IMG/VR virus record: IMGVR_UViG_3300045125_000165
Source: a virus
Length of the DNA: 64,000 nucleotides
Direction: 5' to 3' (one strand)
Shown one piece after another: positions 18,526 through 43,913 of the stretch. A program made the translations under genes and the position numbers. The notes under the pieces were generated by a model. That model had not been told where the DNA came from, did not search any database, and was given only the letters and a program-made list of their open reading frames with translations. The stretch's first letter is position 1. Each line of letters opens with the position of its first letter.

Positions 18526-19273
18526 GTAAAATCGAATGGACAGACGAAACCGATAACCCTATCACCGTCAAAGGCGGCGGTCATTGGTGTCGCAAAATCT
18601 CGGAAGGCTGTGCTAATTGCTACGCCGAAGCGATAAACACTGGAAATCGCTTTGACTTCGCCAGTGGCTTGACTTACACAGGTAAAACACCAGAACTAGA
18701 ACTAAACTACAAAATGCTTGAAGGATGGGCGCGTAAGCGTGTTCCTAAGCGGCGCTTTGTTTGTTCGATGACTGATTGGTGCGGGAGTGGATACCTAGAG
18801 AGTGGCAATATGAAATGCTGCAAGCAATGAATCGCGCCGACAACCAAACGTTTATGTTGTTGACTAAGCGTGCAGATATTCTGATGGAAGTTTTGGATAC
18901 TTGGCTAAGAGGGACACGATATGCACCTCAAAATATTTGGCTTGGCGTATCTGTTGAGAATCAATCCACAGCTAATACTAGGCTCCCATATTTAGCAGAG
19001 ATTGGAGATAGACTAAAAGTCTATACTTTTGTCAGCTTTGAGCCACTGCTAGAACCTGTCTTGCTTGGTGATTACGCCAAATATATTGACCTTGCCATTG
19101 TTGGCGCTGAATCTGGTAAAGGTGCTAGACCGATGGATGAAGATTGGGTGCGATCGCTTCGTGATGAAGTCAAAGCTGCAAACAAGTCTTTCTTCTATAA
19201 GCAAAACGTTGTCAATGGTCGCAAGGTTTCTTTGCCTGAATTAGATGGGAAAGTGTGGAGTGAATTACCATGA
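18522..19273 (+). CDS. phage Gp37/Gp68 (DUF5131) radical-SAM-like protein (frameshifted)
   Basis: SKIEWTD, CRKISEGCANCYA, FVCSMTD, LLTKR, WLGVSVENQ, VSFEPLL, GAESG. Confidence 0.9.
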
Positions 19274-19599
19274 TCAATAACGACTGGCTATCCAATCTAA
19301 AAGCAGGCGATCGCGTATATATCAATCGCGGATCAAGCATTGGTTATAACCTCACCCCTGCGATCGTTGAGCGTACAACAAAGACAACGATCATTGTCAA
19401 TGACTCAAAATACCGCAAAAGTGACGGTGTAAAGCAAGGTAACTGGGATTATTTTACGCCGCAGTTATGCGAAGCAACTGAAGCGATAGACGCAAAATAT
19501 AGGGAGTATCAGTTGCGGAGAGATCTTGAGAAGGTTAACTTTAGCAAGTTGCGGATTGATCAGGTTGAGAGAATATTGGCGATCGTGAAAGAGGTATAA
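19270..19599 (+). CDS. hypothetical phage protein
   Basis: Coupled ORF, LKAGDRVYI...VERTTKT. Confidence 0.7.
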   Translation: MINNDWLSNLKAGDRVYINRGSSIGYNLTPAIVERTTKTTIIVNDSKYRKSDGVKQGNWDYFTPQLCEATEAIDAKYREYQLRRDLEKVNFSKLRIDQVERILAIVKEV

Positions 19600-19602
19600 C
19601 AA

Positions 19603-19965
19603 ATGACACAACTAGCGCTAATCCATCATCACGGCGACGACTATCCCTATTGGGATGACACTAAATACCTTGATGGCGAAATCATTGATTCCGATGAAAG
19701 TCACGCAACGCTTGAAGACCTTGTTAAATACTGCGATCACGATGCCGAAAGCTGTAACGCCCATGACTTTTGCGGCGCTCACAGATTGCTTGGCAGAGTG
19801 CTTTACGACCATGTTGGTAGAGCGAAAGCGACTGAGATCATGTTAGCGATCGCCAAAATGGAAGGATTGCAAGGCATGACAGGTGTAGAAAAAGATTTCG
19901 ACCATTATCAAACATTAAACGTAGGAATTGCAGGGCATGATTGGGATGAAAACTATGACGATTAA
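19603..19965 (+). CDS. hypothetical protein
   Basis: Acidic 120-aa ORF in the operon. Confidence 0.65.
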   Translation: MTQLALIHHHGDDYPYWDDTKYLDGEIIDSDESHATLEDLVKYCDHDAESCNAHDFCGAHRLLGRVLYDHVGRAKATEIMLAIAKMEGLQGMTGVEKDFDHYQTLNVGIAGHDWDENYDD

Positions 19966-20677
19966 ATCACCACCCATAGGCTTTACCGAGCCTAACTTTT
20001 GCGCGGTACTGCAAGGTACTAAAACAGAAACGCGCCGTCTTCTAACTTTAAAAGGTAGAACTCAGGAAGAAGTCAATGGCTTGACATCGTTTTGTCAGGA
20101 CGGTGATGGTAATTGGATTGGGCATTTCGGGAATACGTTTGGCGATTTGGCAGAGCTAGCTAAATTCACAAAAGCGGCTTATCCAAAGGGATCTAATAAA
20201 GGTATTAAGCCTAAATATAACGTAGGCGATCGCTGTTACCTTACAGAGCCAACACGGATTGACACAATATTTGCTCACGTTGCAGAAATTGATCATCGTT
20301 GGTATAAAGCTGAGAAAGTTGGTCACAAAATTACTGAGAATGACTTGGCGAAGATCAAGTCACGGAAAGGAGGAATGTACAAAGAAACTATTGCACGATT
20401 CATGCTCAAAAATTTTGCTCGATACCATGTTGAAATTACCAACGTGCGGATTGAGCGATTGATGGATATTACCGAAGAGTCTGCGATCGCGGAAGGGATT
20501 AAAACTCGTACTCTAGATGGAGTCACAACTTATTGGGATTACCTAGAGAATAGATTTGCTTTTACTTGTCCTAAGCGATCGTATATCTCAGAGATTGAGA
20601 TGCTGCATGGCAAGGCGATCGCGCAGTCAAACCCTTGGCTATGGGTCTACAAATTTAAACTGATTGGAGAAAACTGA
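19955..20677 (+). CDS. ASCH/PUA-like phage protein
   Basis: KTETRRL, EITNVRIERLMDITEESAIAEGI, NPWLWVYKF. Confidence 0.75.
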   Translation: MTIKSPPIGFTEPNFCAVLQGTKTETRRLLTLKGRTQEEVNGLTSFCQDGDGNWIGHFGNTFGDLAELAKFTKAAYPKGSNKGIKPKYNVGDRCYLTEPTRIDTIFAHVAEIDHRWYKAEKVGHKITENDLAKIKSRKGGMYKETIARFMLKNFARYHVEITNVRIERLMDITEESAIAEGIKTRTLDGVTTYWDYLENRFAFTCPKRSYISEIEMLHGKAIAQSNPWLWVYKFKLIGEN

Positions 20678-20953
20678 TGCTAGACGGTAAATTAGTTCGC
20701 ACTATTTCCGACATTTCAACCTGTGAAGGAAATGTCGAAGAGATTATCATTGATGCTGGTACTGAGTTTGTTTGGGATGACTCAACAATTGATCAAAACG
20801 TTGACGGAATATTGGTTTTCGTTGATCGCGATGAAGTGGAATTGGTTGAGGAATAATGAAAGTATCCCTCGAATATCTCTATCACTATCTATGCGATCGC
20901 TGCCAGAAGTGGTGGACATGCGCCGATATCAAGCCAGCGATCGGTAAGGAAGT

Positions 20954-21299
20954 ATGAAAATACCCAAAGCCAATTTCTACCCGATCAGAGTTTGTACTTA
21001 AAAGAGTATTAGAACGTCATGGATTTAAAGTCGCGCATAATGAAAAATTGCATGGCTACTATCCAGACCTGCGAATTGTCGGAACAAACATCTTGTTGGA
21101 AATCGATGGGGCAGTTCACCGTATCCCAGAGGTGCATGAGAGGGACAAACAACGCTCTAAGCATCTTAGGAAGCATGGCTATAAGATAATGAGATTCACT
21201 AATTATCAGGTGGCAAAAGACTGTAACAAAATTGTCGCTAAAGTATGCGATGAGATATTGAAGCAACAGCAGAAACGGAAGAAGAATATGATAAATTAA
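20954..21299 (+). CDS. free-standing DUF559 endonuclease (frameshifted at the 5' end)
   Basis: YYPDL..LLEIDGAVH..RDKQRSKHLRKHGYKIMRFTN. Confidence 0.75.
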
Positions 21300-21623
21300 A
21301 TATGCGATCGCCCAAGTCGTAGTCAAGGGCTAAAGGTACGAGGTTATTGATTTTTGATTGCTTATGGACTGCTTGCTACAGCGACGGTAATCTAAGTCAG
21401 TACAAACCTAATATTCAACTATTAGTAATCGCCAACGGGTTAGCTGTCCCGAAAACCTTTACTTGGGCGATCGCACCCCAATCAATCGCAGAAATGCACA
21501 CTTTAAGCCCTGCGGTGACAAATCCTAGATATGGTGCTAGGGATTGATTGAATCGCGATCGCCGAAACAGAGCAGGATAAGTCACCTGCATAATAATCCC
21601 CTTCTGCACTAAGCGATCGCACA

Positions 21624-21753
21624 TCAAGAGTGGCGAAAAAGCAGACGCTACGCGGGAAATCCCACCAGTAGAGACTAGACCTGTAAGCGAAGCAGTGGAC
21701 GGGTTTTGTTCTGGAAAATTAGACTCATGCAGGTTCGTATCCTGCCTCTTGAT
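21624..21753 (+). ncRNA. 130-nt tRNA-like RNA with the anticodon region replaced by an ~80-nt insert
   Basis: Acceptor TCAAGAG/CTCTTGA, U8-G9, D stem GCG/CGC, T arm GCAGG-TTCGTAT-CCTGC. Confidence 0.7.
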
Positions 21754-21832
21754 ACAATTCGCGATCGCCCTAAGCCTGAGATACACGCCCCGCGTATATT
21801 GTCGATGGCAGTGGACAAGCGATCGCGCCCAT

Positions 21833-21906
21833 CGCGGTGTAGAGGAGTGATCGTCCTCGTCTGGCTCATAATCAGAAGATCGTGGGTTTAAATCCCACCA
21901 CCGCCA
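21833..21906 (+). tRNA. tRNA-fMet(CAU), variant initiator
   Basis: Cloverleaf with C1xC72 mismatch, A11-U24, loop CTCATAA and A73; no encoded CCA. Confidence 0.85.
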
Positions 21907-22102
21907 TTAACAAGAGAGAAGGCGATCGCCGTTTATGCGATCGCCTTTAAATTAACAACTTTTTTACCCTTCTTACCCTTCTTCTCAGATTTCTCCATAG
22001 CAGGGGTTTCGTACTTTTCGCCTTTTTCTTCAGGCATTATTTTTGCCTTCAGTTTGGCTTTCATCTTTGGATTCATTTTCATGGTGTTTTCTCGCTCAGT
22101 AA

Positions 22103-43825: not shown

Positions 43826-43913
43826 GCTATAATAAAAACAACAAAACCCGCCAAGCCTCTCAACGATGCTGAAACTGGCGGGTTACTTTCAACCAATAGC
43901 CCACAATGTTCTT

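What the first reader, a model, noticed from the sequence alone, without database searches (positions are those of the whole stretch)
21624..21753. 130-nt tRNA mimic: intact acceptor, D and T arms, with an ~80-nt domain replacing the anticodon arm
Seen: a 7-bp acceptor (8 bp if A21623-T21753 pairs), U8, a class-II-like D arm and a canonical-length T arm with tRNA spacing. Between them lies an insert with its own helices (GGG-AAAU-CCC; CCAG/CUGG; GAGAC/GUUUU; CUG/CAG) and no 7-nt anticodon loop. It sits 80 nt upstream of tRNA-fMet. Knowledge: T4 makes stable non-tRNA RNAs of similar size from its tRNA cluster. Inference: an RNase P-processed mimic, such as a decoy for anticodon nucleases, a synthetase or EF-Tu ligand, or a protein scaffold.
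Basis: partly seen in the sequence, partly recalled or inferred. Interest (0 to 1): 0.72.

Follow-up and report, generated by a model that had tools for sequence, protein, structure and literature searches.

The report
Anticodon-less tRNA-shaped RNA gene in cyanophage
A 130-base gene in the tRNA gene array of an uncultured cyanobacterial virus has the ends and top half of a tRNA, but a conserved ~80-base folded insert sits where the anticodon should be, so it is a non-decoding tRNA look-alike of unknown role, like the 50-year-old unexplained "species 1 RNA" of phage T4.

Summary
Positions 21624-21753 (+) form a 7-bp acceptor helix (8 bp with 21623:21753), a 3-4-bp D stem and a 5-bp/7-nt T arm. 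These enclose a small hairpin, a 50-nt hairpin and a 14-nt single strand. There is no anticodon loop. ARAGORN (default settings) and Rfam miss it.

It is tRNA-derived, not chance. Related phages carry homologues with almost the same acceptor and T arm but anticodon loops of 6, 9 or 34 nt, and one scores 46.6 bits on Rfam tRNA.

It is a discrete, selected unit. Two further variants exist. In one with homologous flanks, the element is 97% identical against about 77% for the flanks (p about 1e-7). In the other the downstream flank is unrelated and the upstream leader only about 60% alike. High identity starts and stops at the tRNA-like ends, 88 nt are invariant, and the small hairpin carries a compensatory G-C to U-A change.

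It sits in a variable tRNA cassette slot beside a DUF559 homing-endonuclease-like gene.

Best reading: a stable, non-decoding, tRNA-scaffolded RNA processed like a tRNA. Its function is unknown. The closest known relative is T4 species 1 RNA (rnaC).

This scan has flagged the same kind of RNA in other phages. It is a new variant of a known but unexplained kind, of moderate interest.

The parts
21535..21622 (+). Upstream leader with promoter-like boxes (GATTGATTGAAT at 21542-21553; CATAAT at 21589-21594; HIP1 GCGATCGC at 21613-21620)
   Evidence: Partly homologous (about 60% identity, with indels) to the leader of the same element in L243 and L200. The L243 and G003 versions read TTTTATGATAAATTAA. 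The consensus promoter scan found no + strand site, so promoter function is inferred only.
21623..21623 (+). Position -1 (A), able to pair with U21753 as an 8th acceptor pair
   Evidence: A-U in the window and L200, G.U in L243. Not conserved in the type B relatives.
21624..21630 (+). 5' acceptor strand UCAAGAG
   Evidence: Pairs with 21746-21752. Invariant in 3 variants. Relatives have UCGAGAG, CCGAGAG or CCGAGAA with G3.U70.
21631..21648 (+). U8, G9 and the D arm (GCG - 10-nt loop - CGC); the loop lacks G18G19
   Evidence: Two loop positions vary among variants and the stem is invariant.
21649..21664 (+). Variable linker plus small hairpin (GGG-AAAU-CCC; GAAA-capped in the other two variants)
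   Evidence: This is the only strongly variable part. It carries one compensatory G-C to U-A change and a 1-nt indel. The 11-mer AAATCCCACCA (21657-21667) is identical to the T arm/acceptor junction of the neighbouring tRNA-Met at 21890-21900 (2 of 1000 shuffles).
21665..21714 (+). 50-nt hairpin CCAG...CUGG with internal loops and a 14-nt apical loop
   Evidence: Invariant except AC>UU (21674-21675) in L200. Its ends and middle resemble a tRNA-Met-like unit of relative G003 (CCAGUAGAG, ACCUGUA, AGCAGU; 36 of 1000 shuffles, plus my reading).
21715..21728 (+). 14-nt single-stranded segment AAAAUUAGACUCAU
   Evidence: Unpaired in all folds and invariant in 3 variants. No antisense target in the window beyond chance.
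21729..21745 (+). T arm GCAGG-UUCGUAU-CCUGC (U54 U55 C56 present, U at position 58)
   Evidence: Pair 2 is C-G here and U-A in type B, L039 and L243-upstream, a compensatory change.
21746..21753 (+). 3' acceptor strand CUCUUGA plus discriminator U; no encoded CCA
   Evidence: High identity with L243 ends 1-2 nt after this point.
21754..21831 (+). Spacer and leader of tRNA-Met, with the conserved motif ATTGTCGATGGCAGTGGA (21798-21815)
   Evidence: 80% identical to L200. The same leader precedes a different tRNA in L039, and a decayed tRNA in L036 and L229.
21832..21907 (+). tRNA-Met(CAU), the next cassette of the array
   Evidence: ARAGORN and Rfam at 53.5 bits. 100% identical in L200.
21919..21947 (.). 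HIP1-based hairpin acting as a bidirectional terminator at the end of the array
   Evidence: Stems conserved in L200 and L237.
21048..21299 (+). DUF559 (Vsr-like) homing-endonuclease-like ORF flanking the array
   Evidence: Pfam PF04480, E = 1e-11, profile positions 42-107 of 109. DUF559 genes also flank the array in L237, L238 and L243.

Best explanation
The element is a discrete gene for a tRNA-derived, non-decoding structured RNA. It is one cassette in a variable tRNA gene array at the end of a + strand operon of an uncultured, HIP1-rich cyanophage whose contig is at least 102 kb. Shown: it keeps the tRNA top half (acceptor helix stacked on a T arm, plus a D stem). It has no anticodon loop. 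Its ~80-nt insert is under purifying selection. High conservation begins and ends at the tRNA-like termini. Inferred: it is transcribed from its own leader. The host tRNA machinery then cuts it out (RNase P at the 5' end, RNase Z and the CCA-adding enzyme at the 3' end, as for the CCA-less tRNA-Met beside it). This would yield a stable ~130-nt RNA in which the tRNA frame acts as a processing and stability scaffold. The invariant insert (a GNRA-capped mini-hairpin, a 50-nt hairpin and a 14-nt single strand) would be the working part. It most likely binds or titrates a host or phage factor and does not take part in decoding. The insert appears to have been assembled from fragments of neighbouring tRNA genes by recombination in this array, which lies next to a homing-endonuclease-like gene.
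For: Fold. Homology to tRNA-like genes: the type B element in relatives G003, G004 and G006 has acceptor UCGAGAG/CUCUUGA and canonical D and T loops, and scores 46.6 bits on Rfam tRNA with 34-36 nt in place of the anticodon loop. L039 has a 74-nt tRNA with the same acceptor and T arm. Local alignments of the element to both beat all 1000 shuffles. A model built from the element alone recovers genuine tRNAs at 20-28 bits. Selection: against L200 the element has 4 differences in 131 columns, while spacer plus downstream have 49 in 214 (binomial 1.6e-10, Fisher 1.4e-7). The insert alone gives p = 1.8e-6. Cassette behaviour: in L243/L244 the element (144 bits) lies between different tRNA genes. 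Its downstream flank is unrelated, and its leader is only about 60% identical with indels. There is one compensatory G-C to U-A change, and a GAAA tetraloop in 2 of 3 variants. A 1-nt indel (L200) and a 2-nt indel (L243) exclude coding. The slot is variable: L237 has DUF559 then tRNA-Met with nothing between, and L242 has tRNA-Pro then tRNA-Met. No decoding: ARAGORN with introns allowed at its default threshold finds nothing.
Against: There are no expression data. Only three close variants exist, so most helices never vary and covariation rests on a single pair. The AC>UU change in L200 breaks one predicted pair in the long hairpin. The D loop lacks G18G19 and the T loop has U58, so a canonical tRNA elbow is doubtful and efficient RNase P, CCA-enzyme or EF-Tu recognition is not assured. 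Because the cassette moves between arrays, part of its high identity could reflect recent spread and not selection. No partner protein was found in the window: no Ro60/TROVE and no RtcB. No antisense target was found.
Confidence: 0.65

Rival explanations
1. A non-functional chimeric pseudo-tRNA. On this reading it is a recombination scar made of tRNA fragments in an array churned by a homing endonuclease. It would look conserved only because the cassette spread recently among related phages.
For: The insert contains pieces resembling the T arm of the neighbouring tRNA-Met and a tRNA-Met-like unit of G003. The array holds other decayed or aberrant tRNAs. The elbow nucleotides are degenerate. 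The cassette occurs in unrelated contexts, so it is mobile. DUF559 genes flank the array.
Against: Differences are strongly non-uniform. Between the window and L243, 88 nt are invariant while about 10 changes fall in a 17-nt patch that keeps its hairpin through a compensatory change. The element's own homologous leader has diverged to about 60% with large indels, and the L200 flanks to 77%. So the cassette is not simply young. All stems are intact in all variants.
Confidence: 0.2
2. A DNA-level site and not an RNA gene, for example an integration site (attP) copying a host tRNA, or a homing-endonuclease recognition or repair tract.
For: tRNA-like sequence next to an endonuclease gene. Sequence-level invariance with little covariation.
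Against: No tyrosine integrase was found in the window ORFs scanned or in 5 related records, 4 of them at least 90% complete. No representative bacterial genome, cyanobacterial or other, carries the T arm plus acceptor 21-mer together with a matching 5' acceptor strand and a comparable insert. An attP needs only the 3' half of a tRNA, whereas here both acceptor strands are kept and pair. The block boundaries coincide with the RNA ends.
Confidence: 0.06
3. A decoding tRNA interrupted by an intron, for example ARAGORN's 'tRNA-His(GUG) with a 38-nt intron and 8-bp acceptor'.
For: ARAGORN -i at a 90% threshold makes this call. Three of the four L200 differences fall in the proposed intron. Position -1 pairs with position 73, as in tRNA-His.
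Against: The same ARAGORN setting makes about 12 calls per shuffled 64 kb and 17 in the window, so the call is at noise level. At the default threshold with introns allowed, nothing is found. The model needs A33, a G.G mismatch and a 24-nt unstructured variable region. Position -1 is A in two variants. 38-80 nt is far below group I intron size (my knowledge), and Rfam finds no intron family. In type B relatives, my reading of the sequence finds no contiguous deletion that restores a normal loop.
Confidence: 0.03
4. Part of a protein-coding gene on the minus strand (ORF 21415-21786, 123 aa).
For: An open frame exists, and gene callers have called similar frames in public data.
Against: No Pfam or PHROG hit. 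The 1-nt and 2-nt indels between variants break the frame. L200 has no minus-strand ORF of 40 aa or more across the element. Identity to the L243 ORF covers only the element.
Confidence: 0.01

Closest known systems
Bacteriophage T4 species 1 RNA (rnaC, NC_000866 70908-71046), with species 2 RNA (rnaD)
   Same: A ~130-140-nt non-tRNA RNA gene inside a phage tRNA cluster that also holds a homing endonuclease gene (segB in T4, DUF559 here). rnaC folds with a canonical T arm stacked on a terminal acceptor-like helix and long hairpins in place of the D and anticodon arms. The model built from the window element hits rnaC weakly (18.4 bits). As far as I know, its function is still unknown.
   Different: There is no real sequence homology. 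T4 rnaC lacks a D arm and has U.U mismatches in its terminal helix. The window element keeps a D stem but has a degenerate T loop. Hosts are unrelated. Stability and processing are shown experimentally for T4 only (my knowledge).
Engineered 'tRNA scaffold' RNAs (Ponchon and Dardel; see PMC3753655)
   Same: A foreign RNA is placed where the anticodon arm would be, so the chimera is processed and protected like a tRNA. This is the mechanism proposed here.
   Different: That system is artificial, with a canonical elbow retained. Here the arrangement is natural, the elbow nucleotides are degenerate, and processing is untested.
tmRNA tRNA-like domain
   Same: Acceptor plus T arm with the anticodon arm replaced. 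The type B relatives share the G3.U70 alanine identity pair. Rfam tmRNA gives a weak hit (22 bits) to a neighbouring fragment in G003.
   Different: The window element has A3-U70 and no tag reading frame. ARAGORN -m and Rfam find no tmRNA. At 130 nt it is far shorter than the 374-position Rfam tmRNA model.
Bacterial Y RNAs (YrlA) with Ro60/Rsr
   Same: A tRNA-mimicking module combined with a protein-binding helix.
   Different: In YrlA the RNA ends form the Ro-binding stem at the anticodon side, which is the opposite topology (my knowledge). There is no Rfam Y RNA hit and no TROVE/Ro60 or RtcB among the window ORFs scanned.
Aberrant-loop tRNA-Ala-like genes of the same phage group (type B 97 nt; L039 74 nt; L243-upstream 71 nt)
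   Same: True homologues. They share the acceptor consensus [U/C]C[A/G]AGA[G/A] and the T arm G[C/U]AGG...CC[U]G/AC. The motifs GGG-AAA-CC-ACCAGU and AUUAG are shared with type B.
   Different: They keep G3.U70, G18G19 and A58, and their anticodon loops are 34, 9 and 6 nt. The window element has A3-U70, degenerate loops and an extra ~45-nt hairpin.

Membership tests
Canonical tRNA (Rfam RF00005) | Cloverleaf with a 5-bp anticodon stem and a 7-nt loop | tested here: not met
   No RF00005 hit even at E<=10. ARAGORN at default settings finds none, with or without introns. No 7-nt loop appears in any fold.
Canonical tRNA (Rfam RF00005) | 7-bp acceptor helix stacked on a 5-bp T stem with a 7-nt loop, and tRNA spacing (U8, D stem) | tested here: met
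   A model of the element recovers real tRNAs.
Canonical tRNA (Rfam RF00005) | Elbow nucleotides G18, G19, U54, U55, C56 and A58 | tested here: not met
   The D loop is AAAAAGCAGA with no GG. The T loop UUCGUAU has U at position 58. This is so in all three variants.
T4 species 1-type stable RNA of phage tRNA clusters | Non-decoding RNA gene of about 120-140 nt located in a phage tRNA array, with tRNA-like T arm and terminal helix | tested here: met
   Array context. T4 rnaC fold. Weak model hit.
T4 species 1-type stable RNA of phage tRNA clusters | Accumulates as a stable RNA cut out of the tRNA precursor | not testable with these tools
   No transcript data are available.
tmRNA | G3.U70 alanine identity pair and a tag reading frame | tested here: not met
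   The pair is A3-U70. ARAGORN -m finds nothing. No Rfam tmRNA hit on the element.
Y RNA / YrlA with Ro60 | Ro-binding stem formed by the RNA ends, and a Ro60 (TROVE) gene nearby | tested here: not met
   No Rfam hit. No TROVE among 54 window ORFs scanned against Pfam.
Group I intron-containing tRNA | Intron of about 200 nt or more with a P1-P9 core in the anticodon loop, flanked by exons that form a normal anticodon arm | tested here: not met
   The insert is about 80 nt. There is no Rfam intron hit. The ARAGORN intron call is at noise level only.
Phage attP copy of a host tRNA | Integrase gene in the phage and an identical 3' tRNA segment in host genomes | tested here: not met
   No PF00589 in 5 relatives or in the window ORFs scanned. 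No matching tRNA was found in representative genomes. Serine recombinases were not specifically tested.

The most novel reading that the evidence does not exclude
The element and its aberrant-loop relatives belong to a broad, undescribed class of phage 'anticodon-less' tRNA-scaffolded RNAs. In this class the constant tRNA top half hijacks host tRNA processing and stability. The fast-evolving insert is an effector that sequesters a host factor, for instance a tRNA-targeting defence nuclease, a tRNA-modifying or repair enzyme, or a translation factor. If so, this would give a function to the class first seen as T4 species 1 RNA.
Probability: 0.15. Interest if true: 0.8.

Novelty: new variant of a known kind. 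Interest (0 to 1): 0.5.

Why it matters
Phage tRNA clusters have been known since the 1970s to hold stable non-tRNA RNAs (T4 species 1 and 2) whose function was never found. This cyanophage element is an independent, sequence-unrelated example with clear signs of selection. It has exact tRNA-like boundaries and moves between arrays like a cassette. It also has homologous relatives whose anticodon region ranges from 6 to about 80 nt. That series suggests a route by which a tRNA gene (probably tRNA-Ala-like) becomes a non-decoding RNA, and it offers a small, tractable family for asking what such RNAs do. Default ARAGORN and Rfam miss the element, so such genes may go unreported in phage genomes.

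Tried and rejected
(1) Rfam at the gathering threshold and at E<=10 gave no family for the element.

(2) ARAGORN for tmRNA found nothing. The low-threshold intron call 'tRNA-His(GUG)' was rejected as noise after shuffle controls.

(3) blastn against cultured phages and plasmids matched only the tRNA-Met. tblastn with the TerL (large terminase) and with a 587-aa protein found no close cultured relative.

(4) Relatives found through the phrog_874 and KilA-N neighbour proteins had no copy within 6 kb.

(5) 5'-anchored pattern scans of viral and genome collections returned only unrelated sequences.

(6) The T-arm 17-mer and 21-mer scans mostly returned ordinary tRNAs or chance matches. They yielded L200, the type B copies and L039.

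(7) The genome search with model R1 on five related records found nothing, but it also missed the known type B copy, so that answer is uninformative.

(8) No second copy of the insert occurs in the window, so it is not a repeated mini-element there.

(9) An antisense target for the 14-nt single strand was at chance level.

(10) The Ro60/Y-RNA lead from earlier scan notes was tested: no TROVE, RtcB or other evident RNA-partner family appeared among the window ORFs. A Phage_ProQ_C-like protein lies 2 kb upstream, but nothing links it to the element.

(11) Literature searches found no description of this family.

(12) No whole genome is held for this window.

Full report
**Setting.** The window is phage DNA. 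It holds a ResIII/DEAD helicase with an intein, a DUF5131 protein, a Phage_ProQ_C-like protein, a KilA-N/BstA-like protein, Bro-N/ANT, an EAL domain protein and an IS605 OrfB. It is dense in the cyanobacterial HIP1 palindrome GCGATCGC. No whole genome is held for it. Its contig is 102.5 kb. It has no close cultured relative. On the + strand, genes end near 20950. A DUF559 (Vsr-like) endonuclease ORF follows at 21048-21299. Then come about 320 nt of non-coding DNA, the element (21623-21756), a 78-nt spacer and tRNA-Met(CAU) at 21832-21907. A HIP1-based hairpin terminator at 21919-21947 faces a convergent minus-strand operon.

**Observation.** The acceptor helix, U8, D stem and T arm are present with tRNA spacing. 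They are recovered by the minimum-free-energy fold (z = -3.2) and by RNAalifold on three variants. Between the D and T arms lie five parts: a 5-nt linker, a 3-bp hairpin, a 50-nt hairpin closed by CCAG/CUGG, and a 14-nt single strand. No 7-nt anticodon loop exists. The D loop lacks G18G19, and the T loop is UUCGUAU, with U at position 58. Default ARAGORN and Rfam do not call the element. ARAGORN calls a 'tRNA-His(GUG) with a 38-nt intron' only at a 90% threshold with introns allowed. That setting makes about 12 calls per shuffled 64 kb, so I disregard the call.

**It is tRNA-derived.** The KilA-N neighbour protein led to related viral contigs. Searching their whole records with Rfam tRNA found a 97-nt 'type B' element in G003, G004 and G006. 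It has acceptor UCGAGAG/CUCUUGA, a canonical D loop (AGUGGUA) and T loop (UUCGAUU), discriminator A73 and the G3.U70 pair. In place of the anticodon loop it has 34-36 nt. It scores 46.6 bits.

- A complete relative, G007 (L039), has a 74-nt tRNA with the same acceptor and T arm and a 9-nt anticodon loop.
- L243 has a 71-nt member with a 6-nt loop.
- Local alignments of the window element to type B and to the L039 tRNA beat all 1000 shuffles.
- The second T-stem pair is C-G here and U-A in the relatives, a compensatory change.
- A covariance model built from the window element alone retrieves genuine tRNAs at 20-28 bits.

The element is therefore the most derived member of a small family of tRNA-Ala-like genes, none of which has a normal anticodon loop. 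Unlike its relatives it has A3-U70, so by established identity rules alanyl-tRNA synthetase should not charge it. This is inference.

**It is a selected, discrete unit.** Two further close variants exist.

(i) L200 is a 1.2-kb metagenome contig that shares the element, spacer, tRNA-Met, terminator and small-ORF layout.
- The element differs at 4 of 131 columns. The spacer and downstream region differ at 49 of 214, and the tRNA-Met at 0 of 76.
- The statistics are Fisher p = 1.4e-7 for the element and p = 1.8e-6 for the insert alone.
- One of the four differences is a 1-nt insertion, which excludes a coding explanation.

(ii) L243/L244 were found through a spurious ORF that gene callers place on the minus strand.
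- They carry the element (144 bits) between a different tRNA-like gene and tRNA-Gly(UCC).
- The downstream flank is unrelated. High identity starts at U1 and ends 1-2 nt after the discriminator.
- The ~90-nt upstream leader is homologous but only about 60% identical, with a large indel.
- Differences to the window cluster in the D loop (2) and in the 17-nt linker and small hairpin (about 10). There a G-C pair becomes U-A, and the loop becomes a GAAA tetraloop, as in L200.
- The 50-nt hairpin, the single strand, the T arm and both acceptor strands are invariant. These run from 21665 to 21752, which is 88 nt.
- Position -1 is A, A or G and can always pair with U73.

Other relatives that share the small ORF and terminator have nothing in this slot (L237: DUF559 directly followed by tRNA-Met), or tRNA-Pro before tRNA-Met (L242). 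The locus is thus a variable tRNA cassette array next to a homing-endonuclease-like gene. T4 has the same arrangement, with segB sitting inside its tRNA cluster.

**Origin of the insert.** The segment CGCGGG-AAAU-CCCACCA resembles the T arm and acceptor junction of the neighbouring tRNA-Met (CGUGGG-UUUAAAU-CCCACCA). An exact 11-mer is shared (2 of 1000 shuffles). The ends and middle of the 50-nt hairpin (CCAGUAGAG, ACCUGUA, AGCAGU, CUGG) resemble a tRNA-Met-like unit that lies upstream of type B in G003 (weaker, 36 of 1000 shuffles). Type B shares the motifs GGG-AAA-CC-ACCAGU and AUUAG (43 of 1000 shuffles). I infer that the insert was assembled from tRNA fragments by recombination within such arrays and was then fixed.

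**Mechanism.** The element cannot decode. The most economical reading is a tRNA-scaffolded stable RNA. The acceptor and T-arm stack, with its exact boundaries, would direct RNase P, RNase Z and CCA maturation, as for the CCA-less tRNA-Met beside it, and would protect the ends. The invariant insert would be the functional part. Every one of these steps is inferred; none is shown. What the insert does is unknown. I found:
- no antisense target in the window;
- no Ro60, RtcB, synthetase-like or integrase gene;
- no Rfam family.

The degenerate elbow argues against efficient use by EF-Tu or the ribosome. It also leaves open how well RNase P would recognise the RNA.

**Rivals.**
- A recombination scar that looks conserved because the cassette spread recently remains possible (about 0.2). 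It fits poorly with the strongly non-uniform pattern of change and with the diverged leader and flanks.
- A DNA-level site (attP or endonuclease target) is unlikely. There is no integrase, no host tRNA match was found, and both acceptor strands are kept.
- The intron-tRNA and coding readings are effectively excluded.

**Comparison.** The closest known object is T4 species 1 RNA (rnaC). In my fold it has a canonical T arm on a terminal helix, with long hairpins in place of the other arms. It lies in a tRNA cluster with a homing endonuclease gene. The window model hits it weakly. There is no real sequence homology, and the function of rnaC is, to my knowledge, unknown. Earlier notes of this scan describe the same kind of anticodon-less tRNA-shaped RNA in several other phages. 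This is therefore one more independent instance, not a singular oddity. I searched two literature queries and read two papers without finding this family described.

**Verdict.** The element is a real, conserved, non-decoding tRNA-shaped RNA cassette. It is a new variant of a known but unexplained kind, and I score its interest at 0.5.

Noticed in passing
L031:1500-1598; L039:2986-3059; L243:2035-1965 (minus): Relatives of this phage carry tRNA-Ala-like genes (G3.U70, canonical D and T loops) whose anticodon loops are 34, 9 and 6 nt instead of 7. It is a whole small family of apparently non-decoding or oddly decoding tRNAs. The L039 version has CGC in its loop; GCG is the first codon of in-frame HIP1.
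   Followed up: partly
L031:1320-1430: Upstream of type B in G003 lies a tRNA-Met-like unit (anticodon arm ACAGG-CUCAUAA-CCUGU, aberrant D and T arms). It is followed by an isolated T arm plus 3' acceptor fragment. Each unit is preceded by a repeated AT-rich promoter-like box (TTTTATGATAAATTAA). Rfam tmRNA hits the fragment at 22 bits.
   Followed up: partly
window 21048-21299 (+): A free-standing DUF559/Vsr-like endonuclease ORF matching only profile positions 42-107 of 109, so possibly N-terminally truncated. DUF559 genes flank the tRNA array in L237, L238 and L243 too.
   Followed up: partly
window 21754-21831; L039:2911-2981; L036:12620-12700: The 78-nt leader of the window tRNA-Met (motif ATTGTCGATGGCAGTGGA) is homologous to the leader of a different tRNA in L039 and of a decayed tRNA in L036/L229. 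Leaders and tRNA bodies recombine independently.
   Followed up: partly
L042:7925-8045 (minus): An AT-rich phage with 10 tRNA genes has an uncalled 89-119-nt tRNA-like element between tRNA-Ile and tRNA-His. It has an acceptor, a T arm and a long perfect hairpin. The same cluster has three tRNA-Asn(GUU) genes of 76-90 nt. L047, L180 and L184 also hold tRNA-Asn(GUU) genes with long variable arms.
   Followed up: no
L002:3073-3250: A high-GC viral contig has a tRNA with a 2-nt 'anticodon' call. It is followed directly by a 99-nt tRNA-like element with possible pseudoknot pairing (CTAGG/CCTAG and GGGG/CCCC).
   Followed up: no
L043, L044, L046, L034, L038, L094 (Pseudomonas prophage regions): A conserved ~160-nt GC-rich structured sequence ending in a canonical T arm plus CCTCTTGA. 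No tRNA is called by ARAGORN. It may be another tRNA-like RNA or an att site.
   Followed up: no
window 43847-43883 (+): Rfam abiF RNA motif at 49.3 bits (gathering threshold 37).
   Followed up: no
window 19270-19599 (+) and 19928-20677 (+): A Phage_ProQ_C-like protein and a phrog_874 protein with a weak ASCH (RNA-binding fold) hit lie 1-2 kb upstream of the RNA array. A link to the element is possible but untested.
   Followed up: no
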